This document shows positions 1 through 36,722 of a stretch of DNA of 64,000 nucleotides, one piece after another (position 1 is the stretch's first letter; every line of letters begins with the position of its first letter). Both the position numbers and the translations under genes were made by a program. Source of the DNA: Escherichia phage ALITA. The stretch lies in sequence record PP359570; one strand, given 5' to 3'. Below the pieces are notes generated by a model. That model did no database searches, was not told the DNA's origin, and saw only the letters and a list, made by a program, of their open reading frames with translations.

Positions 1-1
1 A

Positions 2-1726: not shown

Positions 1727-1827
1727 ATATTTATACTAAAAACTAAGACCCCAAACTATGCCTTTATTTATACATATAAAGTTTATTGTTTGTACTACCC
1801 CCATAGGATAGTGGGTGTTATGTCTAG

Positions 1828-5947: not shown

Positions 5948-6289
5948 ATGGAGCTAACAGAAGTATGGGATATCGCTAAAGAGGCGATTATCCCTCTTAT
6001 TGGCGTAATCTGGGTGGTCTTCAAACAGAAGATAGATGATATGGCAAGTGATTTGGATAAAATGGAAGACAAATACCGCGAACTAGAAAAGAAGTTGGTG
6101 TTTGTTGAATCCACTTATGCTACCAAAGCAGAACTTGCTCAAATGCTTAACCAGATCAACTCTACATTAATGGCAAATAATACTGCCTTAGAACAGAAGA
6201 TTGAAAAAATAATGGATTTAAAAAATGCTCCTGTTCAATTAATGCTAGAGGAGATTACAAAGCGCACACAAAGTAAGGACAAAAATTAA
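5948..6289 (+). CDS. Small membrane-anchored coiled-coil protein
   Basis: 113 aa; N-terminal hydrophobic helix then charged coiled-coil; stop overlaps next ATG. Confidence 0.45.
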   Translation: MELTEVWDIAKEAIIPLIGVIWVVFKQKIDDMASDLDKMEDKYRELEKKLVFVESTYATKAELAQMLNQINSTLMANNTALEQKIEKIMDLKNAPVQLMLEEITKRTQSKDKN

Positions 6290-21780: not shown

Positions 21781-22050
21781 CTAAAATGATTCGTTTGTCT
21801 CCATAATATATTGCATTTCCAAATCTTCCATATGTTTCTTAAATTGGTAAACAATTTCCGATGGGGAAATATCTATATCAAAAAGTTCTTTTGTACCAGA
21901 ATAAAACCTAATACCATCAACAATAAGACCACCATAATAATCCCAATCACTTTCTCGTGAGAAAGGGTTAGGTTCTTCATAATAGTAATCTACTTCAACA
22001 ATAATAGGTTCTTTATTATCTTGTTTATACTCAAAATCAAAAGTGTGCAT
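21781..22050 (-). CDS. Hypothetical protein
   Basis: 89 aa, SD GAGGA. Confidence 0.45.
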   Translation of the reverse strand: MHTFDFEYKQDNKEPIIVEVDYYYEEPNPFSRESDWDYYGGLIVDGIRFYSGTKELFDIDISPSEIVYQFKKHMEDLEMQYIMETNESF

Positions 22051-22985
22051 TATAAATCCTCGATAAGCAGTCTGCGGGTTTCATTTAAATTGTAGTTATC
22101 TCTTACATACTTAGCAAGAGCCAATCCTTTCTCAATACAAACATCAGGGGATTCGATTAAGTATTCTACAATATCTTTCCACTCTTTAACTGAATCAGCA
22201 AAGAAGATTAGATCTTTAAATTCTTCAGTATAATAGTTCTCTCGTGGCGAACAAACGAGTGGCAAACCTTTAGCACCAGCTTCAAGAATTTTTAAATTAC
22301 TTTTGGCATTATTAAAATGATTATTTACTAATGGAGCTATGGAGATTTGATGACCATCGTATGCTTCCATATAACACTCATAAGGACGAATACCTTCATA
22401 AACACAATCTGGTTGAATATTTTCTTTAATTTGCAACCATTGAGCACTACTTAACTCTTCGTGATCTCTACGAAATCCACATAAAGTTAAATCTTTACCA
22501 AAATCAGGAAGAATTGCTAAATCATGTTTATGTGTTTCACTTCCCGCCCAAACCAGTGGACTTTTAGAATAACGATCTTTAGTAAGAACAAACTGTCCTT
22601 CATCAAAAGGTAGTCCGTTAGGCACAATATGTACATTATCATTGTATTGGCTTAATTCAACCTTTAATGCCGGAGTTGTTGTAGTTACAAGATCACTTCT
22701 TTCAAGGAACCATTTTAGGTCATCTCGGATTTGATTTTCAAATAATCCTTCAAGCATATGCCCTTCAGGAATAATTAAAGAATCATCCAGATCCATTACC
22801 AATTTAAACCCAAGTTGTTTAAGAGCCAGGAAACCTGGCTTTCCACGTGTTGGTACTCCATTGAACACAAAAATATTATGCTTAGGATTAATTGTCAGTT
22901 TGCGTTTATATGGCAAAATGATTCTATGAAAATCACATACACTATACTTTTCATTTCCGCGTGTGTCAAGAATAATATTAGGCAT
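22050..22985 (-). CDS. Glycosyltransferase (GT-B fold, group-1-like)
   Basis: 311 aa; C-terminal motif ISIAPLVNNHFNNAKSNLKILEAGAKGLPLVCSP; paralog of next gene. Confidence 0.65.
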   Translation of the reverse strand: MPNIILDTRGNEKYSVCDFHRIILPYKRKLTINPKHNIFVFNGVPTRGKPGFLALKQLGFKLVMDLDDSLIIPEGHMLEGLFENQIRDDLKWFLERSDLVTTTTPALKVELSQYNDNVHIVPNGLPFDEGQFVLTKDRYSKSPLVWAGSETHKHDLAILPDFGKDLTLCGFRRDHEELSSAQWLQIKENIQPDCVYEGIRPYECYMEAYDGHQISIAPLVNNHFNNAKSNLKILEAGAKGLPLVCSPRENYYTEEFKDLIFFADSVKEWKDIVEYLIESPDVCIEKGLALAKYVRDNYNLNETRRLLIEDL

Positions 22986-22996
22986 ATATCTCCTTG

Positions 22997-23971
22997 TTAA
23001 AGACTTTCAATAACTTGACGACGCAGTTCATTGGCATCTGCAAGATTATAATTAAGACGAACGTGTTCTGCAAGCATCATACCACGATCTTCTGTGTATC
23101 TAGGGTTCCTCATTAGCTTGACAACTTCATAATGCCAAGATGCTTTAGAGTCTGCATAGATAACAGCCTTTGCATCTACCGGATTGAAGTACGGCAGCAC
23201 AGGAGAACAGATAATAGGAAGACCCTTTGCACCTGCTTCCAAAATCTTCAAATTGCTTTTACAGTTGTTGAAGTCATTATCTACCAGGGGAGCAATTGCA
23301 ATACTGTGACCGTCATACACAGACATATACTCACCTAAATTTTTAATAGCTGGTTTATACTGTGCATTTGGAATCTTACGTTTTATTTTAACCCACTCCG
23401 CAGTAGTTAGATACTGACTATTATTTCCAACAGGTGCAGAAGGATACACTTCATACCCTGCAATTGTCAATAGTGTATCATCAAATGTATTAGCTACAAG
23501 AGATAAATCAGGTTCGTGGCTTGCTCCTCCAGCCCAGATAATAGGCGTGTCAGAATTACGGTCTTTTGTCAAAGTAAATTGACCTTCGTCGTAAGGTAGT
23601 GCGTTTCTAATAACGACAACATTACGATTTAAATGACGAATTTTGTAAGCTAGGTATTCTGTTGTTACAGTAACAACATCTGCTAACTTGACCATCTCTA
23701 CAATAGTCTTTGAGTGATTAGTAAATACGCCAGCCATATAATGTTCAGGATTAAGTGAATAAAAATCATCTAAATCAACAATAATCTTAACACCTTGTGC
23801 CTTCAGGCGTTTAACCTCGTCTGCTCCACGAGAATACACTCTATTAAAAACTAAAACGTCTTTCTTAGGTTTAAACGTATTTCCAGCAAATGGCATTACA
23901 ATACGATGGTAATCACAACCACTGCCTAACTTATTATCACACTTAAGTACAGGAGTATTAGGATTTACCAT
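22997..23971 (-). CDS. Glycosyltransferase (GT-B fold), paralog
   Basis: Start set at ATG with SD AGGAGG (MVNPNTPVL...); motif IAIAPLVDNDFNNCKSNLKILEAGAKGLPIICSP. Confidence 0.65.
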   Translation of the reverse strand: MVNPNTPVLKCDNKLGSGCDYHRIVMPFAGNTFKPKKDVLVFNRVYSRGADEVKRLKAQGVKIIVDLDDFYSLNPEHYMAGVFTNHSKTIVEMVKLADVVTVTTEYLAYKIRHLNRNVVVIRNALPYDEGQFTLTKDRNSDTPIIWAGGASHEPDLSLVANTFDDTLLTIAGYEVYPSAPVGNNSQYLTTAEWVKIKRKIPNAQYKPAIKNLGEYMSVYDGHSIAIAPLVDNDFNNCKSNLKILEAGAKGLPIICSPVLPYFNPVDAKAVIYADSKASWHYEVVKLMRNPRYTEDRGMMLAEHVRLNYNLADANELRRQVIESL

Positions 23972-24644
23972 ATTTTTGAGCCTCCTCATAAGAGATAAAA
24001 GTTTTACCATTGCGAAGATCCTCCAGTGATTGTTTATATTGTTCCCAGTTTACACCAATCCCCTGTTCTTTCTCTTCTTTTGACAGATTCGCAAAAGGTA
24101 AAGGATTATCTCCAAATACATCATCAGGATGGATAAACGCCATAATTCGAATAGGACATGGCACGCCTTGAATACCTCGGTTCAAACCTGCCAGTGGAAC
24201 GCGATGAATCCACTCTGCATCTTCATATCCATAACCGTGGGTGTATGAGCGGAAATAGCCAGCTTTCTCAATAACTGCACGGGAATACATACCAAACTGG
24301 CACATACCTAGTTCCCAAATAACCACTTCCCCTTCAATACCTTTTACTTTATCTTTAAAGTATTCAGGCATACCAAAGAAATCCCAACCATTTTCCTTCG
24401 CCTGTTTTACAAAATATGTTTCCCAACCTTGAACAACAGGATAGCAATCATCATCAAAAATAAACCAGTAATCATACCCTTCATCATAAAACTTTTTCAT
24501 CAGTTCATTACGAGCATATGCAACACCTTTTCGTTCCCGATCATACTGTACAACAAAAGTAGCATTAGGATCAGTCACAAGATAATCTTTAAGAGGACGC
24601 TTACCTACAGTAATAACACCAACACCAATTTTTGTATTTTCCAA
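23958..24644 (-). CDS. Glycosyltransferase (GT-A fold, DxD)
   Basis: 228 aa; YWFIFDDDCYP DxD-type motif. Confidence 0.6.
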   Translation of the reverse strand: MENTKIGVGVITVGKRPLKDYLVTDPNATFVVQYDRERKGVAYARNELMKKFYDEGYDYWFIFDDDCYPVVQGWETYFVKQAKENGWDFFGMPEYFKDKVKGIEGEVVIWELGMCQFGMYSRAVIEKAGYFRSYTHGYGYEDAEWIHRVPLAGLNRGIQGVPCPIRIMAFIHPDDVFGDNPLPFANLSKEEKEQGIGVNWEQYKQSLEDLRNGKTFISYEEAQKYGKS

Positions 24645-24653
24645 AATAACTCC

Positions 24654-25217
24654 TTAAATAATTTTATTCATGTCTTGACAATGTAAAAGGTGTGAAATAG
24701 CTTTTCTAGGATCATCATTACCTAAACGGTATGTGTGAAATAAATATAACCCACGTAGTAAACCTAGCCTTTTATTGTTAGCGTGCAATGCTTTAGAGAA
24801 AATTATATCAAACTGTATTGATCTTTCCTCAAAAGGGATTTCATTCCACAGACTCTTACGAAAGAGAAGAAAGAATCCTGCTAAGATAGCATCTGTAGGT
24901 ACTTCCTCTATTGAGTTTCCCCATTCTAGATGTGCTCTTTTTGCAATCTCAATGTGGTGTAATATATTCGGATCTTCACTTCTTTCATTATTAAATAATT
25001 GATATGTTGATCCCAATCTATTACAAGATGCACCAAGAACATCAAAATCAGGATTTGAACGGACTATTGATTCCAGCCAAGCAGGTTGTTCTGGAAGAAG
25101 AAACATTGTATCAATGTCTCTTAGGCAAATCCAACTATCTTCTGGTAAGACACTTATTGTGTCATTGATACCTTTTCCAATATCTCCAGAAAGATAGGGA
25201 GTTATGTGAAATATCAT
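24654..25217 (-). CDS. Putative glycosyltransferase-like protein
   Basis: 187 aa; CLRDIDTMF acidic motif; adjacent to three GT genes. Confidence 0.4.
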   Translation of the reverse strand: MIFHITPYLSGDIGKGINDTISVLPEDSWICLRDIDTMFLLPEQPAWLESIVRSNPDFDVLGASCNRLGSTYQLFNNERSEDPNILHHIEIAKRAHLEWGNSIEEVPTDAILAGFFLLFRKSLWNEIPFEERSIQFDIIFSKALHANNKRLGLLRGLYLFHTYRLGNDDPRKAISHLLHCQDMNKII

Positions 25218-25965: not shown

Positions 25966-26475
25966 TTAGCGATAAAATTGATGTTCTTTGTAGCGGTACA
26001 CTAGAACCATATCTTTTTCCCAGTGTGCTCTTATTGTAGATTTTTTAAAGTATAATGCTCCTTTTGTAATATCTAATGCAATTCGTAATTCTGGAAAATG
26101 CGTATCGAGATAAAGTAGACGTTCTGCTATAGCCTTAGCTTCCTTCCACTTATCACGTTCCATAACGTTGAATGTCTTTGTGTAAGAGAATTGTCCTTTT
26201 TGAAACAAAACTTCTTTTATAGTATCAGGGAAATATGAATCTCTAGCCCTATTCAATACTACATTACCAACAGCAGACATACCGCGCTTTCCTTGATTAC
26301 GACTTTCTGCATAGATTGCACAAGCTAATAGATTTTCTTTACTATCACGCTTTGTACACTTGTGAACTACTTTAGCAGTTTTTACGTTTGCAGCTTCGGC
26401 TTGCGCCACAACAGGTGTAAATGTAAAAGCAGTTAAGGATAGTAACGCAATTGCGACAAAGGTTTTTATTGACAA
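25966..26475 (-). CDS. Cell wall hydrolase (SleB/Hydrolase_2 family) with N-terminal signal peptide; putative secreted endolysin
   Basis: 169 aa; signal peptide MSIKTFVAIALLSLTAFTFTPVVAQA; motif AIYAESRNQGKRGMSAVGNVVLNRAR. Confidence 0.75.
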   Translation of the reverse strand: MSIKTFVAIALLSLTAFTFTPVVAQAEAANVKTAKVVHKCTKRDSKENLLACAIYAESRNQGKRGMSAVGNVVLNRARDSYFPDTIKEVLFQKGQFSYTKTFNVMERDKWKEAKAIAERLLYLDTHFPELRIALDITKGALYFKKSTIRAHWEKDMVLVYRYKEHQFYR

Positions 26476-26538
26476 ACTTGCCTCCTATTTTGTTAAACGA
26501 ACTTTTATTGTAACACAGAAGAGGCTGTTTTGCAAGTG

Positions 26539-26558
26539 GAGGGGGATAATCCCCCTCT
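26539..26558 (-). promoter_or_regulatory. GC-rich hairpin between genes (attenuator/processing site)
   Basis: GGAGGGGGAT-AA-TCCCCCTC. Confidence 0.35.
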
Positions 26559-26567
26559 TACATTCTG

Positions 26568-27222: not shown

Positions 27223-27819
27223 TTACTCGAACCAATCGTCGCCAGCGCCAAACGCTTTAACTACATCATAAATGTCAAGTCCAGCTTTACCTACACCATA
27301 TGCTTTCAGTTTCCATTCGCTATCTTCCCGCACCAGGGAGGCAACGTGGCAAATGGTATTACCTGCAAGTTCTGGAGCCAAGAAGTCAAAATCCAGCAGT
27401 TCAACGTTACGTTCATCATCGAAGATTTTAAGGAAACCTTCGGTAGCGTGACCAAGGCGTTTCTTACCCGTTTCGTCATCAATAGTGATTACGAATGCAA
27501 TTTCCTGTGCTTCAGCAGAGATATTATCCAGTGTAACATCAATCTGCTCCATTTGTCCTACACCGTCACGAACATCTTCACCTGCAAAAGTAGAACGTTC
27601 AGGATCAAATTTCTGTGCGTAGCATACCAGGTGGCGAGGAGACAACAGTTCCGGCAGACCAGATGCATTGTGTCGGCAAATCAGAGCACTAACATCCAGA
27701 TCCAGTTTTTCGTTAGATTTCCAAGAGAATTCCAGACGAATGCGTTTCAGTGCTGGTGCAATCTTTTTCAGAGAAACTTTTTCGCTAGAACCTTTTTTCA
27801 GGGAAATTTTCTGAGTCAT
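27223..27819 (-). CDS. TerD-family protein (tellurium-resistance/stress-response TerD domain)
   Basis: 198 aa; alignable by eye over full length to E. coli TerD (MTQKISLKKG..VSLKK, LDLDVSAL, IAFVITIDD, EWKLKAYGVGKAGLD). Confidence 0.85.
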   Translation of the reverse strand: MTQKISLKKGSSEKVSLKKIAPALKRIRLEFSWKSNEKLDLDVSALICRHNASGLPELLSPRHLVCYAQKFDPERSTFAGEDVRDGVGQMEQIDVTLDNISAEAQEIAFVITIDDETGKKRLGHATEGFLKIFDDERNVELLDFDFLAPELAGNTICHVASLVREDSEWKLKAYGVGKAGLDIYDVVKAFGAGDDWFE

Positions 27820-27891
27820 AATTTATTATCTCCTTTGTTGTTAATTTACGTTGTCTATTTTACTAATCTTTTCTACAAAGTCAAGCGTTTT

Positions 27892-28686
27892 TTACGCTTT
27901 TGCTCCAAATTTTTTAACCCACTCGCCAAACTCTTCGGATAGCAGTTTATCGTAAAGTTCTTCGTCAGACAAGGACAAATCTGCAATACCGATAAAATCA
28001 ACGTTATCGTATTCTTTTGCCAAGTCTTTCAGGAATTTAAAGTTTGCATTACCTACACCAACCATAAACCAGTAAACAGGAGTGTTGCGGTGTTTGTTCA
28101 GCAAACTACGTACTGCTGAAGTATCCATGTTCTCCCCGTCAGTTTGGAAGAAAATCATTGCAGGAGTACGATCAACTTGTGCATCAGTATCTACAACCTG
28201 TTCTACAACAGTACGTGTAACTTCTACACGTTCTTTTTTACCAGTTAGTTTAGCAAGGAAACCCTTAGCCGGAACTTCTTCATACTCAACGACTTCGCGT
28301 GTAATATTTTTCATAGGTACACTACCGAAGTATGTATCATAGATCTCTTGCATTACTGGAGCATAAGCTGTACCACCATTGATGCAAACATTAGACATAC
28401 AAGAGCCGACATAATCATCATATACATCAGCCGTTGCAGGAGGCAGTTCAAAAGAAGAACTATTGAAAGCCCACATGTCAATCTGTGCATTATCATCAAA
28501 CTTCATACCAAACGGCAGCAGCTTACCTACAAAATCACTAACAGTGCCATCACGATACAGCTCACACATACTACCCGAAATATCTAAGGCGCTACCGACA
28601 CGAAGAACAACATCGTTAATCTTTTTCTTACGCAGAGATACGGTAAGAGTTTCTTGACGTTTTTTAAGACTGATTTTATTGGACAT
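27892..28686 (-). CDS. von Willebrand factor A (vWA) domain protein, TerY-like
   Basis: 264 aa; MIDAS motif DISGSM; adjacent to TerD. Confidence 0.7.
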   Translation of the reverse strand: MSNKISLKKRQETLTVSLRKKKINDVVLRVGSALDISGSMCELYRDGTVSDFVGKLLPFGMKFDDNAQIDMWAFNSSSFELPPATADVYDDYVGSCMSNVCINGGTAYAPVMQEIYDTYFGSVPMKNITREVVEYEEVPAKGFLAKLTGKKERVEVTRTVVEQVVDTDAQVDRTPAMIFFQTDGENMDTSAVRSLLNKHRNTPVYWFMVGVGNANFKFLKDLAKEYDNVDFIGIADLSLSDEELYDKLLSEEFGEWVKKFGAKA

Positions 28687-28687
28687 A

Positions 28688-28957
28688 TTATTTCTCCTTT
28701 CTGAGTGTAATGTTAGTAACTTCTAAATCCACTTCTACCACTTCTGTATCATATAAAATACAGTTAAGTTGACCTCTTTGTGAACCGTTCAGACACATTG
28801 CTTGGTTTGTATTAACCTTAATAAACACTAAGTTTCTGAACGTATCTAAACCAGCATCTTGATAGGCAACATAATATACGAATGTATCACCTGTGTCAAG
28901 TTCTCCAAAACATTTAGGTTCATCTGATTTGTCGTCTTTGATATTAAATTTAAGCAC
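28688..28957 (-). CDS. Hypothetical protein
   Basis: 89-aa ORF. Confidence 0.45.
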   Translation of the reverse strand: MLKFNIKDDKSDEPKCFGELDTGDTFVYYVAYQDAGLDTFRNLVFIKVNTNQAMCLNGSQRGQLNCILYDTEVVEVDLEVTNITLRKEK

Positions 28958-29513
28958 TGTCTTCTCCTTTACCTGCTCTCAAGCCTAAATAGAAAGCCTC
29001 TCTGGTGATCTTTTGCAACTCGTTTAAAGAGATAGTTACAACTAAATCATCTTCAATTTCTAGCTTTGAGTCTTCTTCTGTCTCAATGCAAGTATTATGC
29101 ACTTTGTGGTAAGGATTGTCAACACGTTTAAATTTATTATTTTCAGTGCTGAAGAAGCAATCTGGATCTTCTTCCCCATCACCCCAACCCTGGTTAGGAT
29201 CTTCTTCAGATCTTTCTGTTGGGATCTCGCCTGTAAAGTGCTCTTCTAATACCAGAGCAATCCCATCTCCAAGATCGGAAGAGAACATCAAATTACAAAC
29301 TTCTTCCCAAGGCATAGACCACTTAAATCTTTTACGATTGCCATGTTTATCTTCTTCGTTAGAGAAAACACTACCATAGCTATCATAATTCCCATACATC
29401 TCTTCGACAACCTTACCACCTTTCAAAAGAAATAGGTAGCAAGGAGAGCCATCGAAAGAGGTAGAAAGAGCAGCATTACCAGACTCTTTGCACAAGAAAC
29501 TAAAACACCCCAT
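28950..29513 (-). CDS. Hypothetical acidic protein
   Basis: 187-aa ORF. Confidence 0.5.
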   Translation of the reverse strand: MGCFSFLCKESGNAALSTSFDGSPCYLFLLKGGKVVEEMYGNYDSYGSVFSNEEDKHGNRKRFKWSMPWEEVCNLMFSSDLGDGIALVLEEHFTGEIPTERSEEDPNQGWGDGEEDPDCFFSTENNKFKRVDNPYHKVHNTCIETEEDSKLEIEDDLVVTISLNELQKITREAFYLGLRAGKGEDSA

Positions 29514-29713
29514 TATACACCAGCCTTAAGATCAATTAAAGCCAAAGTTGTTTCAGAGTGTGTTTGCTCGTCTACAGGTGCAGTCATATGATAATACAAA
29601 AAATCTTCGGCATCATACCAATCTGATTCTTGACCTTGTTTCCAACCATCAATGAAAGCATCTTCCATAATGGTTTGCAATTCTTCACGAGTTAAGTGAA
29701 TATCTTTACTCAT
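29513..29713 (-). CDS. Hypothetical small protein
   Basis: 66-aa ORF. Confidence 0.4.
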   Translation of the reverse strand: MSKDIHLTREELQTIMEDAFIDGWKQGQESDWYDAEDFLYYHMTAPVDEQTHSETTLALIDLKAGV

Positions 29714-29919
29714 TACACATTCTCCTCTTTTACCAATTCCATTGTTGAATTGTCAAAACCATCTTTAGAAGAATAGGTATAGACAGCACGTAGTTCTCGC
29801 AGGACAGTGAATACATTAGGATCATCTAACCAAGCATCCTGGAGGAGAACATAACGATCTTCATTGTCATACTGGACAGCAATCATAGAGCCAGACAGTT
29901 TGTAAATTTTAATATTCAT
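29713..29919 (-). CDS. Hypothetical small protein
   Basis: Start at internal ATG with SD AAGGAG (MNIKIYK...). Confidence 0.4.
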   Translation of the reverse strand: MNIKIYKLSGSMIAVQYDNEDRYVLLQDAWLDDPNVFTVLRELRAVYTYSSKDGFDNSTMELVKEENV

Positions 29920-29932
29920 AATATATTTCTCC

Positions 29933-31036
29933 TTAAAGTAGACCACGTTTAACAGTTTGAATCATACCATCTTCAAGAGATTGCACTTCTTGAATGTAAT
30001 CAATACGAGCAGCACGGGCTTCAGTGTTGATTCGGTTAGTTTCTTCCAACATTTTAACTAAGTTTTCTTGATCACGACGCAATGTTTCAATATCCAATAC
30101 TTGACGATTAGCAAGTTGTGTAGCTTCAATCTGGTTTTGTGCAGCCAGATCACTACCCATTGCAATAGCAGCATTAAATTCATTCAGTACGTTGTTCTGT
30201 GTATCGGCTGCTTTCTTCTGGCGCAGACTTTCAATATACATAGAAAAGTTTGCAGAGTAAGCAGGAATAACATTGTTCACAATATTACGGGCTGATCGCA
30301 TCAAACTTGCAGATACTTTCTGCATACTTTGTACACGTGGCCCCATCTGAACGCACAGTAAGCGTAAGGCTTTCAGGTCTGCAATACGAATTTCAAGCAG
30401 ATCCATAGTGTCACGAGTACGTTGACGCTCTTCTACTTCATTTTCAGGTAGTGTATTAAGGCGAACTTCTTCTTTTTCATAAGTAGCTGTTAGAAGCTCT
30501 ATATCCCTGTTTAAGCTAAGAGCATATTTTGCAATAGCCTCCTCTAAACGTTGCAGATATCGTAAAGAATCTTCTTCTTTTTTCAAGTCTGTTTGGAGTG
30601 TCTTTACCAAACCCTCAATACGATTATTGATGGTGTCAAATTCTCCAAACAAATCTTCTTTCATACCTAATACTTTCTTAACTAACTTACCTAAACCTTT
30701 AGATTGTTTAATAGAATTAGGATCAAGTTGCTTTGCTTGCTTAATAAGTGCAGTTAAACGTTCACTCATTTCATCTCCCTGAGATGAACGCTGGTGTTTA
30801 AGCACTTCAGCATTAAGGTTACGAAGAGTAAGTCCTGCATCAGCACCAACTTGTTCAATCTCTTCACGAGACATTGGAGGCAGCATTTGTACAGGTCGTG
30901 CAACAGCAGGGGCATATACAGGACTTGCATCCATAGCACTTGGAGCAAACAAAGACTTACTTTTTTCTGTTGTTGCCGTGAATACACTCATTTCAGACGG
31001 TTTGCTTTTTACGGCACTGATAAAAGGACTGGACAT
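29933..31036 (-). CDS. TelA-like (toxic anion resistance family) coiled-coil protein
   Basis: 367 aa, extended alpha-helical/coiled-coil architecture and length typical of TelA/KlaB; context with TerD/TerC. Confidence 0.55.
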   Translation of the reverse strand: MSSPFISAVKSKPSEMSVFTATTEKSKSLFAPSAMDASPVYAPAVARPVQMLPPMSREEIEQVGADAGLTLRNLNAEVLKHQRSSQGDEMSERLTALIKQAKQLDPNSIKQSKGLGKLVKKVLGMKEDLFGEFDTINNRIEGLVKTLQTDLKKEEDSLRYLQRLEEAIAKYALSLNRDIELLTATYEKEEVRLNTLPENEVEERQRTRDTMDLLEIRIADLKALRLLCVQMGPRVQSMQKVSASLMRSARNIVNNVIPAYSANFSMYIESLRQKKAADTQNNVLNEFNAAIAMGSDLAAQNQIEATQLANRQVLDIETLRRDQENLVKMLEETNRINTEARAARIDYIQEVQSLEDGMIQTVKRGLL

Positions 31037-31104
31037 TCAATTTCCTCCATATTCTTTAGTAGATGGTGATACCTCTGTACCACCATCATAACACAAATTA
31101 AGTA

Positions 31105-31956
31105 TTAAACAAACATATCTAAATAATTTGTAGTAATAAATGCTCCATCTGCTTCCAGATTAACATAACCAGTAGCATTAGTGGTTAAGAAATCCAGATC
31201 GAAGGACTCTTTAACACCCCGTACCTCAACACGAGAGATATCGAATACAGGTAGTGTAACAGCCTCTTCGTGCAATACCGTACCTTTGTAGGTTGCCTTA
31301 ATGATAAACTTGATATTACCCGTTCCAGCATCATACAAAACACTTTCAAACCCTTTGAGAGTATATTTATCACCAGAAGTGAAGTGCAAAGTTGCTTTGT
31401 TTACAGTACGTTTTTTACGAGGAGTTCCTTTCACACGTTTATGATCACTACGTTTTTTGTATTTAGGAATGAATACAAACGATACACTCTCAAGAAAGGT
31501 ATCAACATCAAGGATTTTAATATCCTCTGTTGCAGCAAATTTTGAAGTCGTTGCATCAAAATGCTTTTCCCTGCGATCATACATAAAGATATCAAACCGA
31601 TCTTCTAAATCAAACAAATTATGTATTTTAATTTCAGAATGCTTGCGCATTGCAGCAACCTTGAACTCTTCAAAACGTGGGTGTTCTACAAGTTCTTCAA
31701 GTTTTACACCAAAGACAGTATATTGCTTCGAAGTCTTTTCTGGTGTTGGCATTACAGAAGCATAATCACCGATTGCGCTCTTAAAGCAAAATTGTTCTTG
31801 ACCTGTATTTTTACCAACGAATTTACAGTATTCGTCATTGTGCATACTTTCCTTAGTAGTACCAACAAACTCAAAACCATCTTTATTCTTCTCAAGGATT
31901 TCTTGATTAAAGATCCAACCTTCCAGGCGATATACTTTACCAACTTCTAGTTTCAT
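31105..31956 (-). CDS. Hypothetical protein
   Basis: 283-aa ORF. Confidence 0.5.
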   Translation of the reverse strand: MKLEVGKVYRLEGWIFNQEILEKNKDGFEFVGTTKESMHNDEYCKFVGKNTGQEQFCFKSAIGDYASVMPTPEKTSKQYTVFGVKLEELVEHPRFEEFKVAAMRKHSEIKIHNLFDLEDRFDIFMYDRREKHFDATTSKFAATEDIKILDVDTFLESVSFVFIPKYKKRSDHKRVKGTPRKKRTVNKATLHFTSGDKYTLKGFESVLYDAGTGNIKFIIKATYKGTVLHEEAVTLPVFDISRVEVRGVKESFDLDFLTTNATGYVNLEADGAFITTNYLDMFV

Positions 31957-31991
31957 CTGTTTCTCCTTCTTATTTAATCTGTATTAAATTA

Positions 31992-32582
31992 TTAACGACG
32001 ACGTGAGCTACTAAAACTACGTTTCGACGAAGAATAACTTTTCGAAGACTTACTATAAGAGCTAATAGGGCTTGAGTAAGACTTACGAGCAGAGTAATCA
32101 CTATTCACTTTTGTTGTTGACGGGCGTGAATACGTTTGTACACTTTGCTGCTTAATTGTGTTTTGTTTAGTGGTTGTATATTTATTTCCTTGTTTATCAT
32201 AAAAACTATGCTTTTGTGTTGTATATGCTTTACTGTTAGTTGTAGGAGCAGCGTTGTTATTAATAATTGTTGTACTGCTACCACCATCTCTATAACCGCC
32301 ACCGCCACTATTACCACTCAACATATGACCAAGAAGCATACCTGTAGCAAACTCACCTACACCAGAAGAACCACTGCCGCCTCCTTGCACAACAACTGTT
32401 GAAGGTTGTGCAGGTGCTGCTTGAACAACTTGAGGTGCAGGTTGATTTACATATTGTTCATCTACCATCTGATTTGGTGTTTGTTGGTAACGTTGATTTT
32501 GTACATTTTCAGAATCATCACAACCTACCAGCAATGCACTACCTAATACAACTGCAACAATAAAAGATTTAATGTTTTTCAT
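31992..32582 (-). CDS. Lipoprotein with glycine-zipper segment and S/Y/K-rich low-complexity tail
   Basis: Signal peptide plus lipobox LLVGC; GGGSGSSGVGEFATGMLLGHML glycine zipper; start set at MKNIKS. Confidence 0.55.
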   Translation of the reverse strand: MKNIKSFIVAVVLGSALLVGCDDSENVQNQRYQQTPNQMVDEQYVNQPAPQVVQAAPAQPSTVVVQGGGSGSSGVGEFATGMLLGHMLSGNSGGGGYRDGGSSTTIINNNAAPTTNSKAYTTQKHSFYDKQGNKYTTTKQNTIKQQSVQTYSRPSTTKVNSDYSARKSYSSPISSYSKSSKSYSSSKRSFSSSRRR

Positions 32583-32775
32583 TTGTAACCCTCTCATTTA
32601 AAGTCTCAACACAATTTTTAAAATCCCTAGAGAAACAATACATCTGTTCTCCGTTCCTGTTGATAGTAATTGTATGGTTATCAATATATGTTGTCAAGAT
32701 AAAAATCAAACAAAACAACCCTAGAGCAAAACAAATATTTTCAAACAGAATCCAAAGAACACGTAAAACCACCAT
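32569..32775 (-). CDS. Small membrane protein
   Basis: 68 aa, one hydrophobic helix. Confidence 0.4.
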   Translation of the reverse strand: MVVLRVLWILFENICFALGLFCLIFILTTYIDNHTITINRNGEQMYCFSRDFKNCVETLNERVTNEKH

Positions 32776-32790
32776 CAGATCACCTCAACA

Positions 32791-32808
32791 AAGCCCCCGA
32801 AGGGGCTT
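32791..32808 (-). promoter_or_regulatory. Intra-operon hairpin (partial terminator) after TerC gene
   Basis: AAGCCCC-CGAA-GGGGCTT. Confidence 0.4.
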
Positions 32809-32814
32809 AATGAA

Positions 32815-33792
32815 TTAAGCAACAGTCTGGTCTTCTTTTTCAGGGAAGATTAAACTTGCAATAACACCCAACCCAAGAGTACCTAACACAATATACATAC
32901 TGATCGTCGGATCAATGTGTGCTGGCAGGAAACTCACTTTTGCGTGCAGAGTTTCTGCAAACGGATGATACATCAGTTTTACACCCACAAACACCAGGAC
33001 TACGATAACTGCTTTCTCCAGATGAACCAAATACTTCAGTGCAACACTAAGAACAAAGAACAGAGCACGTAAACCTAAGATTGCACAAAGCATCGAAGAG
33101 AACACCAGCAGAGGTTCTTGTGTCACTGCAATTACTGCTGGAACAGAGTCTACTGCAAAGATTACGTCTACCATTTCCATTACAAACACACAAACCAGAG
33201 CCGGAGTTGCTACACGAACACCATTTTTGATTGTGAAGAACTTCTCACCATCCATCTGATCAGATACAGGGAACAGCTTACGAACAATACGAGTAGCCCA
33301 GTGTTTAGAGTAATCAATTTCTGCATCATTATCCCCAGCGAATACCATTTTAGCCGCACAGAAAAGGATGACAGCACCGAAGAAGATATTAACATACCAG
33401 CCCAAACTCAACAAGTAAGTACCTACTGCTACAAACACACCTCGGAAGACAATTGCACCTGCAATACCCCAAAGTAGAATCTTGTGCTGCAAGTGTGTGC
33501 TTTTAATACCAAAACTTGCGAAGACTGCCACAAATACTACTAAGTTATCTACAGAAAGAGATTTCTCCAACACATAACCACTCAAGAACAAGCTCGCAAA
33601 ATCAGCACCGTGTTGGAAGTATACAAAACCATAGTAGGCTAATGATACCCCAATCCAGAAAATTGACCAGCCAATTGCAGATTTAAATGAGATCTCTTTG
33701 TTTTCTCTGTGTCCAAAGAAGTCAATACAAATCGACAAGACTAAAATACCCACTAAAACAACCACATCAATAATTGGGAAACCCAGTTGCAT
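32815..33792 (-). CDS. TerC-family integral membrane protein
   Basis: 325 aa, multi-pass; motifs EKSLSVDNLVVFVAVF and IFAVDSVPAVIAVTQEPLLVFSSMLCAILGLRALFF. Confidence 0.85.
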   Translation of the reverse strand: MQLGFPIIDVVVLVGILVLSICIDFFGHRENKEISFKSAIGWSIFWIGVSLAYYGFVYFQHGADFASLFLSGYVLEKSLSVDNLVVFVAVFASFGIKSTHLQHKILLWGIAGAIVFRGVFVAVGTYLLSLGWYVNIFFGAVILFCAAKMVFAGDNDAEIDYSKHWATRIVRKLFPVSDQMDGEKFFTIKNGVRVATPALVCVFVMEMVDVIFAVDSVPAVIAVTQEPLLVFSSMLCAILGLRALFFVLSVALKYLVHLEKAVIVVLVFVGVKLMYHPFAETLHAKVSFLPAHIDPTISMYIVLGTLGLGVIASLIFPEKEDQTVA

Positions 33793-33810
33793 TCTTTTCT
33801 CCTCTTTAAT

Positions 33811-33829
33811 GCGGAGGACAATCCTCCGC
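33811..33829 (-). promoter_or_regulatory. Hairpin upstream of TerC gene
   Basis: GCGGAGGA-CAAT-CCTCCGC. Confidence 0.35.
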
Positions 33830-33869
33830 TCTATGTCTTATACTATAAACTGTTTTTAAAGAAAGTCAA

Positions 33870-34118
33870 CTAGTTCAGTTCTGTAATTTTAAGTTTATCT
33901 TCTTTGTTAATGATAGGGAAAGCTACAGCATCACCTACGTCATCAATAAAGCAAATAGCAATACCACCTTCCACTTTGCTAATCTGACCATTAAAGGCAT
34001 GATACGGGGCAGGAACTTGATCTCCATCTTCAAGGAGAATAGCCTCGTAAACCTTGCCGATAGTACAATCACGAGTGTTTCTAAATTTTTCAAGCACTTC
34101 AACATTTACTTTACGCAT
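33870..34118 (-). CDS. Hypothetical protein
   Basis: 82-aa ORF. Confidence 0.45.
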   Translation of the reverse strand: MRKVNVEVLEKFRNTRDCTIGKVYEAILLEDGDQVPAPYHAFNGQISKVEGGIAICFIDDVGDAVAFPIINKEDKLKITELN

Positions 34119-34132
34119 ATAAAAATCCTCTC

Positions 34133-34339
34133 TTATTTGTTAGATTGAAAGATACCACGAAGTACCGCAAGAATGAACGTCACACAGACTACACTCCAAA
34201 ACGTTACAGGAACATGATGCCAGTCTAAACCGATAATGTCAATCATATAGTTGTATGCTAAAAGCAGTAGCCAACTAGGGATTAACACAATCAAGAACAC
34301 AACAATAAAACAACCTAATACTGCTAAAACACCTGCCAT
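34133..34339 (-). CDS. Small two-helix membrane protein
   Basis: 68 aa, two TM segments. Confidence 0.45.
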   Translation of the reverse strand: MAGVLAVLGCFIVVFLIVLIPSWLLLLAYNYMIDIIGLDWHHVPVTFWSVVCVTFILAVLRGIFQSNK

Positions 34340-34348
34340 ACTTTCTCC

Positions 34349-35065
34349 TTATTTCAGTTTGTAAACAATTACATTTAAACCTTTGTTCACTAGAGTTTCT
34401 TCGATCATAAGTTTTACAATATTCCAAGAACCTCCAGCCAAACCACAACCAAGCATTGGTAAACCTACAATTTTACCGCCTGAAGATACAACATCGTCTC
34501 CCATACTATCTAACGCATTGTAGATAGCTTCATAATTCAGGTCACGCTTACCTTCCTCACGACGACTATAACCATATTGTCCATATAAATTATAAATTGT
34601 CAAATTGTTTTCTGTATATTTGGTAAACGTACCTAATTTTTTATAATCACCACGTTTAGTGGCACAATCTGCTTTAAACGCACCAGGCCACTTGCTTTTA
34701 ATTTTTGGTGCAATACCACTACCCATAGTGCAAAAACAGTTACAGCAGTGTGCTATAGCGTCTATATCGCCTCTCTCGGCTGCTGCTAAAAGATCACCGT
34801 ATACCTCAATGATACCTGCCGGATAACTTGTTACAATTTCATCTTCCCAATACATTTTCTCTACACCACCGATCAGTGCAAAGTTTTGTGTAATGCGATC
34901 ATCAATATAGTTAAGACCTGAAACATACACAGCGTATTCATCCTGTGCTGTAATACCTTGCACACGAATTCTTAAGACACCATCTTTATCTGTTGCTACA
35001 CGCCCAAAATCTTTTTCTGTAATATTGGTGATAGGATCTCCGAAAGTCATTACTTTATTAGACAT
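34349..35065 (-). CDS. Macro-domain-like protein (putative ADP-ribose/nucleotide-derivative processing)
   Basis: Start at ATG with SD AAAGGGG (MSNKVMTFGD...); DAIAHCCNCFCTMGSGIA resembles macro DAIVNAAN..GGGV block; later GLPMLGCGLAGG. Confidence 0.45.
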   Translation of the reverse strand: MSNKVMTFGDPITNITEKDFGRVATDKDGVLRIRVQGITAQDEYAVYVSGLNYIDDRITQNFALIGGVEKMYWEDEIVTSYPAGIIEVYGDLLAAAERGDIDAIAHCCNCFCTMGSGIAPKIKSKWPGAFKADCATKRGDYKKLGTFTKYTENNLTIYNLYGQYGYSRREEGKRDLNYEAIYNALDSMGDDVVSSGGKIVGLPMLGCGLAGGSWNIVKLMIEETLVNKGLNVIVYKLK

Positions 35066-35915
35066 AATAATCCCCTTTAACATTAGGTTTGTTGATAATG
35101 TTGCTTTCAAAAAATTGACGTAGGAAATCAAAGTTCTCTTTGTATTTTTCAATGTTATTGTAACCTTCTGCAAGGCAACCAAAGAACAGTTGTTCTACAT
35201 AATACAAAGGAAGTTGTGAAAGTGCAATTTTAAAATCAACTTCGCTTTGACTCATTAGATACTTAATAGGACGAACCAAACATTTAGCATCAGCTTCTTG
35301 CTTAATCATTTTAATAAAAGCTGCCAGATTATTGATATAGTTGAAGTTAAGTGCAGCTTCGGTGTTGGCTTCTGTACCTTCATACTTTGCAAAGTACAGG
35401 AAAAACGTATCGTTTTCAACACCTTCTTTGTCTAAAATTTCAATAAGTTTTTCTTCGTGTGTTCCTGTAATATTAACATCATCAATGAAAATCAGAGTTT
35501 TATTACCCCAGAAATCACGATTGATAGAGAAAGTGTCACCATCGATCAAAGCCTTACGATCTTCTTTGCTAAGAAATCCATAATCATTGATATAGCTCAC
35601 TTTACGATGAACGATATCCCACTCCACTGGTTTACCACCTTTGATAGAGATTAGGTAGTTGAGGTGATCTACAAAATGTTCAGATAACACTGTAGCTGCA
35701 TTTTTCACATAGTTATATGGAGATGGAATAACAACAAAACTTTCATTTACCAGTCGTTCTTCATACTTAGAAAAGAAACTTTCAGCCAGAATGCGCCCCA
35801 TTCTTTTTGCTGCCTGGTTACTACCAAACTTTAGTTTGGAATAATCTGCAATGTTAAATTTTGCTTCCTTCAGGTTAGTAAAAGTATTAGCAAAATGTTG
35901 AATTTGATTACGCAT
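35058..35915 (-). CDS. Phosphoribosyltransferase (PRTase) family protein
   Basis: 285 aa; PRPP-binding-type motif LIFIDDVNITGTH. Confidence 0.7.
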   Translation of the reverse strand: MRNQIQHFANTFTNLKEAKFNIADYSKLKFGSNQAAKRMGRILAESFFSKYEERLVNESFVVIPSPYNYVKNAATVLSEHFVDHLNYLISIKGGKPVEWDIVHRKVSYINDYGFLSKEDRKALIDGDTFSINRDFWGNKTLIFIDDVNITGTHEEKLIEILDKEGVENDTFFLYFAKYEGTEANTEAALNFNYINNLAAFIKMIKQEADAKCLVRPIKYLMSQSEVDFKIALSQLPLYYVEQLFFGCLAEGYNNIEKYKENFDFLRQFFESNIINKPNVKGDYYV

Positions 35916-36564
35916 TAATAAGTTCCTCTTTTTTAAGTTTAGCCAACAAGTCTTCTGGATTAATAATATGACAGAACTTCATCCCTATGTCAACAGCTTT
36001 TCCATCATAAATCAAACTATCTCCAACGTGTAAAATCTCTTCTGGTGCGAGATCAAACGTCACCATTTCATCAAAAGAGAGTTTAAAAAACCTAGGATCT
36101 GGTTTACACAAGCAAAACTCGTCAGAAAAATGCATAAAGTCAAATGGTAATTTTGTTAAGCCAGAATATACAGCTAAGAAACTACCTGGTACAAAATTAG
36201 TATTGCTCTTAATACTCAAAGAGTAGGTTGAACTTAGCTCTTCCAACTTCTTGCAAAGTTCAGGATTCAATGTTGGAGGATGTTTTATAAACATTGCCAA
36301 ACAATCTCTTTTTAACCCATCCACTTTATCAAGATCAATGTTCAAACGAGTAGAAAGTGTTACCCAAGCATCCTTAGACGTTCCACAAATGCCTTTTTCT
36401 GCTTTTAAATCCAAGAAAGTTTTTACCTCTTTGTATACGGTAGCTGCTTCTGCCTCAGAGCAAGAGGCATACTCGGCAATAACCTTGTTGCGCTCTTCTG
36501 CATACAAAGGGTTAGCAGTAATAAGAGTATTCCATACATCAAAAGAAATATGCTTAACAGTCAT
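35908..36564 (-). CDS. HAD-superfamily hydrolase (phosphatase-like)
   Basis: Start at ATG with SD GGAGG (MTVKHISFDVWNTL); HAD motif I FDVWNTL and motif IV HVGDSLIYD. Confidence 0.6.
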   Translation of the reverse strand: MTVKHISFDVWNTLITANPLYAEERNKVIAEYASCSEAEAATVYKEVKTFLDLKAEKGICGTSKDAWVTLSTRLNIDLDKVDGLKRDCLAMFIKHPPTLNPELCKKLEELSSTYSLSIKSNTNFVPGSFLAVYSGLTKLPFDFMHFSDEFCLCKPDPRFFKLSFDEMVTFDLAPEEILHVGDSLIYDGKAVDIGMKFCHIINPEDLLAKLKKEELINA

Positions 36565-36566
36565 TT

Positions 36567-36722
36567 TTAATCCTCCGTCCAAAAGAATATCATCTGCTTA
36601 ATTTTATTGATTTCTTGATGTAGTAACTTTCCAGCATGTGATTGATCTTTAATATTGACAGCAAGAATTTCAAGTTCCGTTAGTTTTTCTTGGATAGCTT
36701 TATATTCATCATCTGTAAGCAT
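36567..36722 (-). CDS. Small hypothetical protein
   Basis: 51 aa (below ORF-track cutoff); SD AAGGGGAAG; stop 2 nt before HAD gene start. Confidence 0.3.
   Translation of the reverse strand: MLTDDEYKAIQEKLTELEILAVNIKDQSHAGKLLHQEINKIKQMIFFWTED

What the first reader, a model, noticed from the sequence alone, without database searches (positions are those of the whole stretch)
25966..26475. SleB-type cell wall hydrolase with cleavable signal peptide as the likely endolysin
The only recognisable peptidoglycan hydrolase in the window has a typical Sec signal peptide, implying holin-independent export. No canonical holin or spanin pair is obvious next to it; small membrane ORFs at 34133-34339 and 32569-32775 are candidates.
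Basis: partly seen in the sequence, partly recalled or inferred. Interest (0 to 1): 0.35.

Follow-up and report, generated by a model that had tools for sequence, protein, structure and literature searches.

The report
Exported second cell-wall hydrolase of phage
The gene is real and encodes a secreted SleB-type cell-wall-cutting enzyme of a phi92-like E. coli phage, but it is an already annotated second wall hydrolase: the same phages carry a classical T4-type lysozyme and a spanin pair outside this window.

Summary
The ORF at 25966-26475 (minus strand, 169 aa, TTG start, AGGAGG ribosome-binding site) exists as described. It carries a full Pfam Hydrolase_2 (SleB/CwlJ-type) domain, an invariant catalytic glutamate (E57) and an N-terminal export sequence (K4, 22 uncharged residues, Pro at -6, A-Q-A before E27). 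The window is about 99.5% identical to Justusliebigvirus (phi92-like) coliphages and corresponds to roughly 21-84.5 kb of a 147-kb genome. Outside the window, every close relative carries a signal-less, full-length T4 gene-e-type lysozyme (E = 2e-52 to T4 lysozyme) and an overlapped Rz/Rz1 spanin pair next to the large terminase gene. The enzyme is exported without a holin, but it is the second muralytic enzyme of this phage type, not the only one. The same pairing of an exported SleB-like enzyme with a separate endolysin recurs in rV5/PVP-SE1-like, T5-like and KPP10-like phages, and it has been noted in print. Homologues were absent from two virion proteomes, so a virion role is unlikely. The two small membrane ORFs named as holin candidates have no link to lysis. 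The enzyme's role (auxiliary lysis or periplasmic wall remodelling) has not been tested. This is an ordinary, known gene with a modest open question.

The parts
25966..26475 (-). CDS of the exported SleB-like (Hydrolase_2) murein hydrolase: 169 aa, TTG start, TAA stop
   Evidence: ORF list and sequence; Pfam PF07486 E = 6.5e-20; PHROG 938; 98-99.4% identical proteins are annotated 'putative cell wall hydrolase' or 'endolysin' in Justusliebigvirus genomes.
26398..26475 (-). Codons 1-26: N-terminal export sequence MSIKTFVAIALLSLTAFTFTPVVAQA, with predicted signal-peptidase site A-Q-A|E
   Evidence: Inspection and hydrophobicity sums. Small residues at -3/-1 are kept in all 14 close homologues although the c-region varies. 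Export-type N-termini are also present in the rV5-like, Seunavirus, Certrevirus, T5 and KPP10 homologues. Cleavage itself is inferred, not shown.
25972..26295 (-). Codons 61-168: stretch matched by Pfam Hydrolase_2 (full-length profile match)
   Evidence: TIGR02869 aligns residues 39-167.
26305..26307 (-). Codon of Glu57 in the Y-A-E-S-R motif, the presumed catalytic glutamate
   Evidence: It aligns with the YGESRGE motif of SleB structures 4F55 and 4FET and is invariant in both alignments A1 and A3. Its identity with the SleB catalytic Glu rests on my knowledge of the SleB structure papers.
26320..26358 (-). Codons of Cys40 and Cys52 (26356-26358 and 26320-26322), a conserved cysteine pair just upstream of the catalytic helix
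   Evidence: Invariant in 14 close homologues and kept in the rV5-like, Seunavirus and Certrevirus homologues. A periplasmic disulfide is an inference.
26481..26486 (-). Shine-Dalgarno sequence AGGAGG, 5 nt upstream of the TTG start
   Evidence: Sequence; conserved together with the TTG start in EF1-1 and PsgM04F.
26507..26535 (-). Sigma-70-like promoter TTGCAA-17 nt-TACAAT with TG at the extended -10 position, in the 92-nt gap upstream of the gene
   Evidence: Consensus scan. The -35 hexamer, the spacing and the TGnTA..T element are conserved in two relatives whose protein is about 75-78% identical. It is a consensus match only, and the temporal class is not inferable.
26539..26559 (.). Conserved G+C-rich stem-loop (GAGGGGGAT-A-ATCCCCCTC) between the upstream gene and the promoter
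   Evidence: There is no U-tract on the minus strand, so terminator function is uncertain.
34133..34339 (-).
   Evidence: TM scan; phrog_16065 of unknown function; lies between TerC and a Macro-domain gene in the Ter cluster; no similarity to the 2-TMD proteins linked to SleB-like genes in relatives.
32569..32775 (-).
   Evidence: TM scan; phrog_17591 of unknown function; directly downstream of TerC.

Best explanation
The gene encodes a small basic murein hydrolase of the Hydrolase_2 (SleB/CwlJ catalytic-domain) fold; the mature form would be about 143 aa with pI 9.7. It is made with an N-terminal Sec-type export sequence, so it reaches the periplasm without a holin. Most likely it is cleaved after A26, less likely it stays as a signal anchor. 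In the periplasm it cuts glycan strands of the E. coli sacculus using Glu57. It is the second muralytic enzyme of a phi92-like (Justusliebigvirus) phage, not its canonical endolysin. The canonical lysis set is a cytoplasmic T4 gene-e-type lysozyme, an Rz/Rz1 spanin pair beside terL and an unidentified holin, all encoded outside this window. The most likely role of the exported enzyme is auxiliary: to weaken or remodel the sacculus from the periplasmic side during infection, so that lysis is faster or more robust. Its output would be kept low by a TTG start codon. The domain, the export-type N-terminus, the conserved catalytic residue and the coexistence with a T4-type lysozyme and spanins are shown. 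Signal cleavage, lytic-transglycosylase chemistry, time of expression and the auxiliary role are inferred.
For: Domain and catalytic Glu. Export signal, conserved in character across six divergent phage homologues; the CB7 homologue is reported to have a signal peptide and to be toxic when expressed in E. coli (PMC7344957). A second, canonical endolysin is present in all close relatives: alia gp186 is a full-length T4 lysozyme homologue (Pfam PF00959; E = 2e-52 over residues 6-165 against T4L 2-161; the E11/D20/T26 equivalents E15/D24/T30 are read from the sequence), with 55 records at 95% identity or more, including ESCO32, outra, AV123 and phi92 gp061. Spanins: and PMC6139136. The window does not reach these genes. 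Coexistence of the two lytic domains in this subfamily is published (PMC10793346; PMC12210895). The same 'exported SleB-like enzyme plus another endolysin' pattern occurs in rV5 (gp89 lysozyme, PMC3606486), PVP-SE1 (gp146, PMC3352856 abstract), T5-like phages (M15 peptidase next to the holin, SleB-like gene far from it, PMC11180984; locus) and KPP10 (ORF26 endolysin after the tail fibres versus ORF143). Not virion-associated: homologues were absent from the CB7 and PA5oct virion MS lists. The TTG start with a strong RBS is conserved, and non-ATG starts also occur in the rV5-like and Seunavirus homologues.
Against: No experiment on any phage Hydrolase_2 protein was found, so neither muralytic activity nor any phenotype is known. 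In Certrevirus and Seunavirus the SleB-like gene is immediately followed by a small 2-TMD holin-like gene (PMC7344957). That looks like a genuine exported-endolysin/pinholin cassette and would make the SleB-like enzyme a primary rather than an auxiliary lysin there. The hydrophobic core of the export sequence is unusually long, as hydrophobic as SAR domains and more conserved than the mature enzyme, which is atypical for a cleaved signal peptide. One paper on related O177 phages states that no signal peptides were detected (PMC10698182). A freely soluble, active periplasmic hydrolase made before the end of infection would risk premature lysis, and no restraining mechanism was identified. The T4-type lysozyme has not been shown genetically to be the endolysin in this phage group either.
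Confidence: 0.6

Rival explanations
1. It is the principal endolysin of this phage. On this reading it is a signal-peptide or SAR-type enzyme that accumulates in the periplasm or tethered to the membrane and is activated when a (pin)holin depolarises the membrane, and the T4-type lysozyme is redundant or serves another purpose.
For: Export-type N-terminus with SAR-like hydrophobicity and a strongly conserved hydrophobic core. In Certrevirus and Seunavirus relatives the gene is directly followed by a non-homologous 2-TMD, 57-62-aa protein, one of which has a highly basic C-terminus; this is the classical look of an endolysin-holin pair (PMC7344957). Justusliebigvirus keeps a member of one of those small-protein families (phrog_10205; alia gp156, E = 1.7e-29). 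The CB7 homologue is toxic in E. coli. PHROG and many GenBank records label it 'endolysin'.
Against: A complete, catalytically intact T4-e-type lysozyme is conserved in every relative. In this genome type the gene has no adjacent holin, and the phrog_10205 homologue lies about 51 kb away. The conserved AXA-type site with Pro at -6 argues for cleavage, not SAR tethering. The TTG start suggests low output. In T5-like phages the homologue lies far from the holin-adjacent M15-peptidase endolysin gene. That T5 has an experimentally established endolysin (an L-alanoyl-D-glutamate peptidase) and holin is from my own knowledge.
Confidence: 0.15
2. It plays no part in lysis. It would be a periplasmic wall-remodelling enzyme acting during infection, for example making local gaps in the sacculus for a phage envelope-spanning structure, altering cell shape or division, or interfering with superinfecting phages.
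For: It lies in the replication and host-takeover part of the genome, between the glycosyltransferase/DNA-replication genes and a Ter stress module, and not with lysis or structural genes. In rV5-like and Seunavirus phages it sits directly upstream of rIIA/rIIB. It coexists with a separate endolysin in four phage lineages. Small Sec-exported lytic transglycosylases serve as 'space makers' for secretion systems and flagella (my knowledge; analogy only).
Against: There is no direct evidence for any such role. The phi92-like genome has no rIIA homologue. The holin-like neighbours in Certrevirus and Seunavirus point to lysis. Genome position does not establish timing, because the same promoter type stands in front of a head gene.
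Confidence: 0.2
3. It is a virion-associated lysin used at infection to penetrate the wall. This is the alternative the first reader named.
For: None specific. Phage wall hydrolases outside lysis cassettes are sometimes virion proteins.
Against: An N-terminal Sec export signal is incompatible with cytoplasmic virion assembly. The gene lies outside the structural module. Homologues were not detected in the CB7 virion proteome (CB7_83 occurs only in the lysis section of the paper) or the PA5oct virion proteome. The 2026 phi92 whole-virion cryo-EM paper does not mention any lysozyme or hydrolase.
Confidence: 0.03

Closest known systems
SleB-like 'cell wall hydrolase' of Vequintavirinae (CB7_83, CR3_087, rV5-like Bas59 gp64) and of T5-like phages
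   Same: Same Hydrolase_2 domain, size (about 150-180 aa), catalytic Glu and N-terminal export sequence; 34-42% identity. Encoded in the replication/early part of a large virulent phage genome that also has another endolysin and spanins beside terL.
   Different: In Certrevirus and Seunavirus a 2-TMD holin-like gene follows directly, and in Vequintavirus and Seunavirus rIIA follows. Neither is the case here. None of these homologues has a tested function either.
Bacillus SleB spore-cortex lytic enzyme (PDB 4F55, 4FET; TIGR02869)
   Same: Homologous catalytic domain with the conserved Y-x-E-(S/A)-R motif.
   Different: No N-terminal PG_binding_1 domain. It scores 51.9 bits against the 236.5-bit equivalog cut-off. 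The host E. coli has no spore cortex or muramic-delta-lactam, which SleB requires as substrate (my knowledge), so substrate recognition must differ.
Exported endolysins: Sec-signal Lys44 of Oenococcus phage fOg44; SAR endolysins P1 Lyz and phage 21 R21
   Same: N-terminal hydrophobic sequence that drives holin-independent, Sec-dependent export of a muralytic enzyme.
   Different: Different catalytic fold. An AXA-type cleavage site is present, unlike SAR domains. There is no adjacent pinholin. The genome also has a canonical cytoplasmic endolysin.
T4 gene e lysozyme (the other lysin of this phage type, outside the window)
   Same: Both are small basic murein-cleaving enzymes of the same phage, and both are conserved in all relatives.
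   Different: T4-e type: GH24 fold, no signal sequence, hence holin-dependent, ATG start. This protein: Hydrolase_2 fold, export signal, TTG start.

Membership tests
Pfam Hydrolase_2 (PF07486, SleB/CwlJ catalytic domain) | Profile match above the gathering threshold over the whole domain | tested here: met
   72.1 bits against a cut-off of 27, profile positions 2-100 of 100.
Pfam Hydrolase_2 (PF07486, SleB/CwlJ catalytic domain) | Conserved catalytic glutamate in the Y-x-E-(S/A)-R-G motif | tested here: met
   E57 aligns with the SleB motif and is invariant in A1 and A3.
Pfam Hydrolase_2 (PF07486, SleB/CwlJ catalytic domain) | SleB-like three-dimensional fold | tested here: inconclusive
   The AlphaFold2 model from 14 close homologues reached only mean pLDDT 57 and pTM 0.46, so no fold search was run.
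SleB proper (spore cortex-lytic enzyme, TIGR02869 equivalog) | Score at or above the equivalog cut-off | tested here: not met
   51.9 bits against 236.5.
SleB proper (spore cortex-lytic enzyme, TIGR02869 equivalog) | N-terminal peptidoglycan-binding domain in front of the catalytic domain | tested here: not met
   Pfam finds only Hydrolase_2, and residues 27-60 are a short basic linker.
Phage endolysin (functional class) | Degrades host peptidoglycan | not testable with these tools
   Only homology is available. The toxicity of the CB7 homologue in E. coli is reported as 'data not shown'.
Phage endolysin (functional class) | Required for host lysis at the end of the cycle | not testable with these tools
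   No genetic data were found in the literature searches.
Phage endolysin (functional class) | Genetic linkage to a holin and/or spanins (usual but not obligatory) | tested here: not met
   The neighbours are soluble proteins of unknown function, glycosyltransferases and Ter genes. The spanins lie beside terL and the T4-type lysozyme about 65 kb away in alia. Linkage to a 2-TMD gene does exist in Certrevirus and Seunavirus relatives.
Phage endolysin (functional class) | The only muralytic enzyme available for lysis in the genome | tested here: not met
   A T4-e-type lysozyme is present in all 55 close relatives.
Sec-signal-peptide exported protein | Positively charged n-region, hydrophobic h-region, c-region with small residues at -3/-1 | tested here: met
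   K4; an uncharged stretch T5-A26 with hydrophobic core F6-V23; P21; A24-Q-A26|E27. The pattern is kept in 14 close and 6 distant homologues. No dedicated predictor was available.
Sec-signal-peptide exported protein | Cleavage by signal peptidase I and periplasmic location | not testable with these tools
   Needs fractionation and N-terminal sequencing. Literature statements conflict.
SAR (signal-arrest-release) endolysin | Weakly hydrophobic N-terminal TMD rich in Gly/Ala/Ser/Thr that can leave the membrane | tested here: inconclusive
   The Hessa-scale sum is +0.93, similar to P1 Lyz (+0.46) and R21 (+0.78), and the G/A/S/T fraction is 0.42 against 0.53-0.63. True signal peptides overlap on the latter measure.
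SAR (signal-arrest-release) endolysin | No signal-peptidase site; partnered with a pinholin | tested here: not met
   An AXA-type site is conserved and no adjacent 2-TMD gene is present in this genome type.
Virion-associated lysin | Present in purified virions, or encoded in or fused to tail or baseplate proteins | tested here: not met
   A stand-alone gene outside the structural module. Homologues are absent from the CB7 and PA5oct virion MS data. This is indirect, because no proteome of this phage was available.

The most novel reading that the evidence does not exclude
Exported Hydrolase_2 (SleB-like) enzymes may form a conserved functional class of their own in large virulent phages of Gram-negative bacteria (phi92-, rV5-, T5- and KPP10-like and some jumbo phages). 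On this reading they are kept alongside, and are not interchangeable with, the endolysin. They could be a second, holin-independent or pinholin-gated lysis route, or a periplasmic wall-remodelling step needed before lysis. The unusually conserved, SAR-like hydrophobic N-terminus would then be a regulatory membrane tether rather than a disposable signal peptide.
Probability: 0.25. Interest if true: 0.5.

Novelty: already known. Interest (0 to 1): 0.2.

Why it matters
It matters little for discovery. The gene is annotated in more than 50 near-identical phage genomes, and the two-lysin make-up of this subfamily is in print. It matters for annotation: 'endolysin' is a family-based label here, and a 64-kb window hid the canonical T4-type lysozyme and the spanins. 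A modest open question remains. Several unrelated groups of large lytic phages, including therapy candidates, keep a secreted SleB-type hydrolase in addition to their endolysin, and no experiment was found that says why. An answer would refine models of lysis timing and could yield an enzyme that is naturally exported and active in the Gram-negative periplasm.

Tried and rejected
1. Structure route. AlphaFold2 on the 14-sequence alignment gave mean pLDDT 57. This is too poor for a fold search, so none was run, and family assignment rests on sequence profiles.
2. Timing from promoter type. The conserved TTGCAA-17-TA(C/T)A(A/C)T promoter upstream of the gene looked like an 'early' sigma-70 promoter. 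A nearly identical one stands in front of a head gene in alia, and sigma-70-like sites precede other structural genes, so I rejected it as evidence of early expression.
3. Holin search. phmmer of the Certrevirus and Seunavirus 2-TMD proteins against all ORFs of alia and the window found nothing (E > 0.3). Only the PHROG profile links one of them to alia gp156, which lies outside the window. tblastn of gp156 finds only Justusliebigvirus records, none annotated as holin. The 47-aa ORF beside the T4-type lysozyme has no TMD.
4. rII linkage. The rV5-like rIIA has no homologue in alia.
5. Literature. The 2012 phi92 genome and proteome paper is not held. The 2026 phi92 cryo-EM paper does not mention lysozyme or hydrolase. 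No RNA-seq for this or the rV5-like subfamily was found. No biochemical study of a phage Hydrolase_2 enzyme was found.
6. Lipoprotein reading of the N-terminus. Rejected, because there is no Cys in or after the c-region.
7. Alternative internal start giving a cytoplasmic isoform. Rejected, because the next Met is M66, after the catalytic Glu.

Full report
**What is in the sequence.** On the minus strand of the window, 25966-26475 is an ORF of 169 codons. It starts at TTG, the first possible start after the upstream stop, 5 nt downstream of AGGAGG, and it ends in TAA. The next gene starts 10 nt after the stop, with its ribosome-binding site in that short gap. Upstream is a 92-nt gap that holds a G+C-rich stem-loop (26539-26559) and a sigma-70-like promoter with an extended -10 element (TTGCAA-17-TG-T-TACAAT, 26507-26535). 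The stem-loop, the promoter hexamers and their spacing, the AGGAGG and the TTG start are all conserved in two relatives whose protein is only about 75-78% identical (EF1-1 and PsgM04F).

**The protein.** Pfam Hydrolase_2 (PF07486, 'cell wall hydrolase', the SleB/CwlJ catalytic domain) matches residues 61-168 over the whole profile (E = 6.5e-20, 72 bits against a cut-off of 27). PHROG 938 'endolysin' matches at 1.5e-20. The only solved structures found by sequence are the SleB catalytic domains of B. cereus and B. anthracis, aligned across the catalytic motif (query AIYAESRNQG against AVYGESRGEP).
- Glu57 is invariant in 14 close homologues and in seven sequences spanning five phage lineages at 28-75% identity.
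- The protein is not an equivalog of SleB itself. It scores 51.9 bits against the 236.5-bit cut-off of TIGR02869 and has no peptidoglycan-binding domain.
- A structure prediction from the shallow alignment was poor (pLDDT 57), so I did not use it.

**The N-terminus.** The sequence MSIK-TFVAIALLSLTAFTFTPVVAQA|EAAN has one basic residue, 22 uncharged residues, Pro at -6, and Ala at -3 and -1.
- Among 14 homologues the c-region is the most variable part of the protein (column identity 0.54), yet it always offers small residues at -3/-1.
- The homologues of an rV5-like phage (VKIKIFAIILSAFLSLPVVA|AP), of T5 (MKAALLLVAALTFSFSSQA|SH), of a Seunavirus and of a Certrevirus all have signal-peptide-like N-termini. 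The KPP10 homologue has an N-terminal TM-like segment.
- Conservation of character across these lineages, without sequence conservation in the distant ones, is what an export signal looks like.
- Cys40 and Cys52, which flank the helix leading to Glu57, are invariant in the enterobacterial myophage homologues. This fits a periplasmic disulfide (inference).
- Two features are unusual for a cleaved signal peptide. Within the close relatives it is also more conserved than the mature enzyme (0.88 against 0.79).
- Published statements conflict. The CB7 homologue 'possesses a signal peptide' and is toxic in E. coli (data not shown) (PMC7344957). A paper on related O177 phages says no signal peptides were detected (PMC10698182).
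- I conclude that export is well supported and cleavage is probable but unproven.

**Where the window comes from, and what it misses.** The region is 99.5% identical to Justusliebigvirus (phi92-like, Stephanstirmvirinae) coliphages such as ESCO32, outra, AV123 and alia. By shared 25-mers the window is collinear with alia from about 21.0 to 84.5 kb of 147 kb. I read the whole alia annotation. Outside the window it has two relevant features.
- gp186 (112599-113099). Its 166-aa product is a full-length homologue of T4 lysozyme (Pfam Phage_lysozyme; E = 2e-52, residues 6-165 against T4L 2-161). It has the catalytic triad equivalents E15/D24/T30 and no hydrophobic N-terminus.
- An overlapped spanin pair directly upstream of terL. 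The i-spanin has an N-terminal TMD and a coiled coil (phrog_4297 'Rz-like spanin', 4.9e-40). The o-spanin is a lipoprotein with the lipobox MTGC (phrog_1267). This phi92/phAPEC8 spanin family is catalogued by Kongari et al. (PMC6139136).

The T4-type lysozyme is present at 97-100% identity in all 55 close relatives, including every top match of the window, and at 60-90% in about 77 more distant Stephanstirmvirinae. These counts mirror those for the SleB-like gene (54 and 77).

**The same duality elsewhere.**
- rV5: gp89 (Phage_lysozyme) is called 'an obvious lysin', with a distant 2-TMD holin candidate (PMC3606486).
- PVP-SE1: gp146 is a biochemically characterised modular endolysin (PMC3352856 abstract).
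- T5-like Salmonella phages: an M15 peptidase lies next to the holin and a SleB-domain protein lies far from it (PMC11180984; T5 locus).
- KPP10: a 'putative endolysin' follows the tail fibres (ORF26) and the SleB-like ORF143 lies among replication genes.

An exported Hydrolase_2 enzyme kept in addition to another endolysin is therefore a recurrent trait of large virulent phages of Gram-negative hosts.

**Evidence that points back towards lysis.** In Certrevirus (POP18, CB7, CR3 and others; 13 records) the SleB-like gene is overlapped at its 3' end by a 62-aa 2-TMD gene, which the CB7 authors propose as a class II holin. In Seunavirus and relatives (60 records) it is followed after 4 nt by an unrelated 57-aa 2-TMD gene whose product ends in a basic tail (RKARKRNP), and then by rIIA. 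Non-homologous small 2-TMD genes at the same position next to a muralytic gene are typical of lysis cassettes. The Certrevirus protein belongs to phrog_10205, and so does alia gp156 (98475-98687; E = 1.7e-29). That gene lies about 51 kb from the SleB-like gene and outside the window. Direct sequence searches do not connect them.

The ORF at 34133-34339 has two TM segments and the one at 32569-32775 has one. They are two of at least ten small membrane proteins encoded on the coding strands of this genome type. They match PHROGs of unknown function and sit inside a Ter-type stress module (TerD, vWA-TerF, TelA, TerC, Macro, PRTase, HAD). Nothing ties them to lysis.

**Virion association.** An export signal does not fit cytoplasmic assembly. 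The gene is outside the structural module. The homologues CB7_83 and PA5oct gp368/gp447 were not found in virion mass spectrometry.

**Timing.** I could not establish when the gene is expressed. It lies at the head of a leftward block with three small ORFs, four glycosyltransferase-like genes, primase/helicase and DNA polymerase. However, its promoter type also precedes a head gene, and I found no transcriptome for this subfamily. The conserved TTG start, together with non-ATG starts in two other lineages, suggests restrained translation. That would suit a potentially self-damaging exported hydrolase (inference).

**Conclusion.**
- Observation: confirmed.
- Interpretation: partly supported. 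The enzyme is exported without a holin, but it is the second muralytic enzyme of a phage that also has a T4-type lysozyme and Rz/Rz1.
- Most likely (confidence 0.6 for the overall statement): it acts in the periplasm as an auxiliary wall-degrading or wall-remodelling enzyme.
- Rivals: it is the primary endolysin (0.15); it has a non-lytic periplasmic role (0.2); it is virion-associated (0.03).
- Novelty: the gene and its context are already annotated and discussed in the literature, but its function has not been tested.

Noticed in passing
window 27223-36582 (minus strand): A complete Ter-type stress-response module lies next to the hydrolase gene. It comprises TerD (27223-27819), vWA-TerF-like (27892-28686), TelA (29933-31036), TerC (32815-33792), a Macro-domain protein (34349-35182), a ComF-like PRTase (35058-35915) and a HAD hydrolase (35908-36582). 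Its role in a lytic phage is unclear.
   Followed up: partly
window 31992-32597 (minus strand): A predicted lipoprotein (from Met6: MKNIKSFIVAVVLGSALLVGC|DD) with Asp at +2, the classical inner-membrane retention signal, and a long Gly/Ser/Gln-rich region. It matches phrog_21570 of unknown function and sits between TelA and TerC.
   Followed up: no
window 26398-26460 (codons 5-21 of the hydrolase): The hydrophobic core of the export sequence (ALLSLTAFTFTP) is more conserved among 60-80%-identical homologues (0.88) than the mature enzyme (0.79). It is also as hydrophobic as SAR domains. Both are unusual for a disposable signal peptide.
   Followed up: partly
L008:2524-2697 (Salmonella phage SalP219) and L007:2519-2707 (Pectobacterium phage POP18): In Seunavirus and Certrevirus relatives the SleB-like gene is immediately followed by non-homologous 57-aa and 62-aa 2-TMD proteins (phrog_24442 and phrog_10205). 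This layout resembles an exported-endolysin/pinholin cassette. In SalP219 rIIA follows next.
   Followed up: partly
L002:48475-48687 (alia gp156, outside the window): A 70-aa 2-TMD protein of phrog_10205, the family of the Certrevirus holin candidate. It is a better holin candidate for phi92-like phages than the two ORFs named in the finding, but it is unlinked to either lysin.
   Followed up: partly
window 1-2200: The first ~2.2 kb share no 25-mers with phage alia, although the rest of the window is collinear. The ORF at 11-1726 is a tailspike with a Gp49 pectate-lyase-like domain, which suggests a receptor-binding-protein swap among phi92-like phages.
   Followed up: no
window 5948-6289 (plus strand): A 113-aa protein with an N-terminal TM segment followed by a coiled coil lies between the tail-fibre assembly gene and a tailspike gene. 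It is annotated 'lipoprotein' in alia but has no lipobox and no Pfam match. Its topology superficially resembles an i-spanin.
   Followed up: no
phage collection records MG065639, MG065645, MG065656, MG065689, MG065662, MG065642: Records named 'Campylobacter phage' with host C. jejuni are about 98% identical to E. coli phi92-like, rV5-like or T5-like phages in these genes. They are probably host mislabels or contaminants in the public collection.
   Followed up: no
window 22050-25217 (minus strand): Four consecutive glycosyltransferase-like genes lie directly downstream of the hydrolase operon and upstream of primase/helicase. One gives a weak TET-associated glycosyltransferase match. This may indicate DNA or surface-glycan modification.
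   Followed up: no
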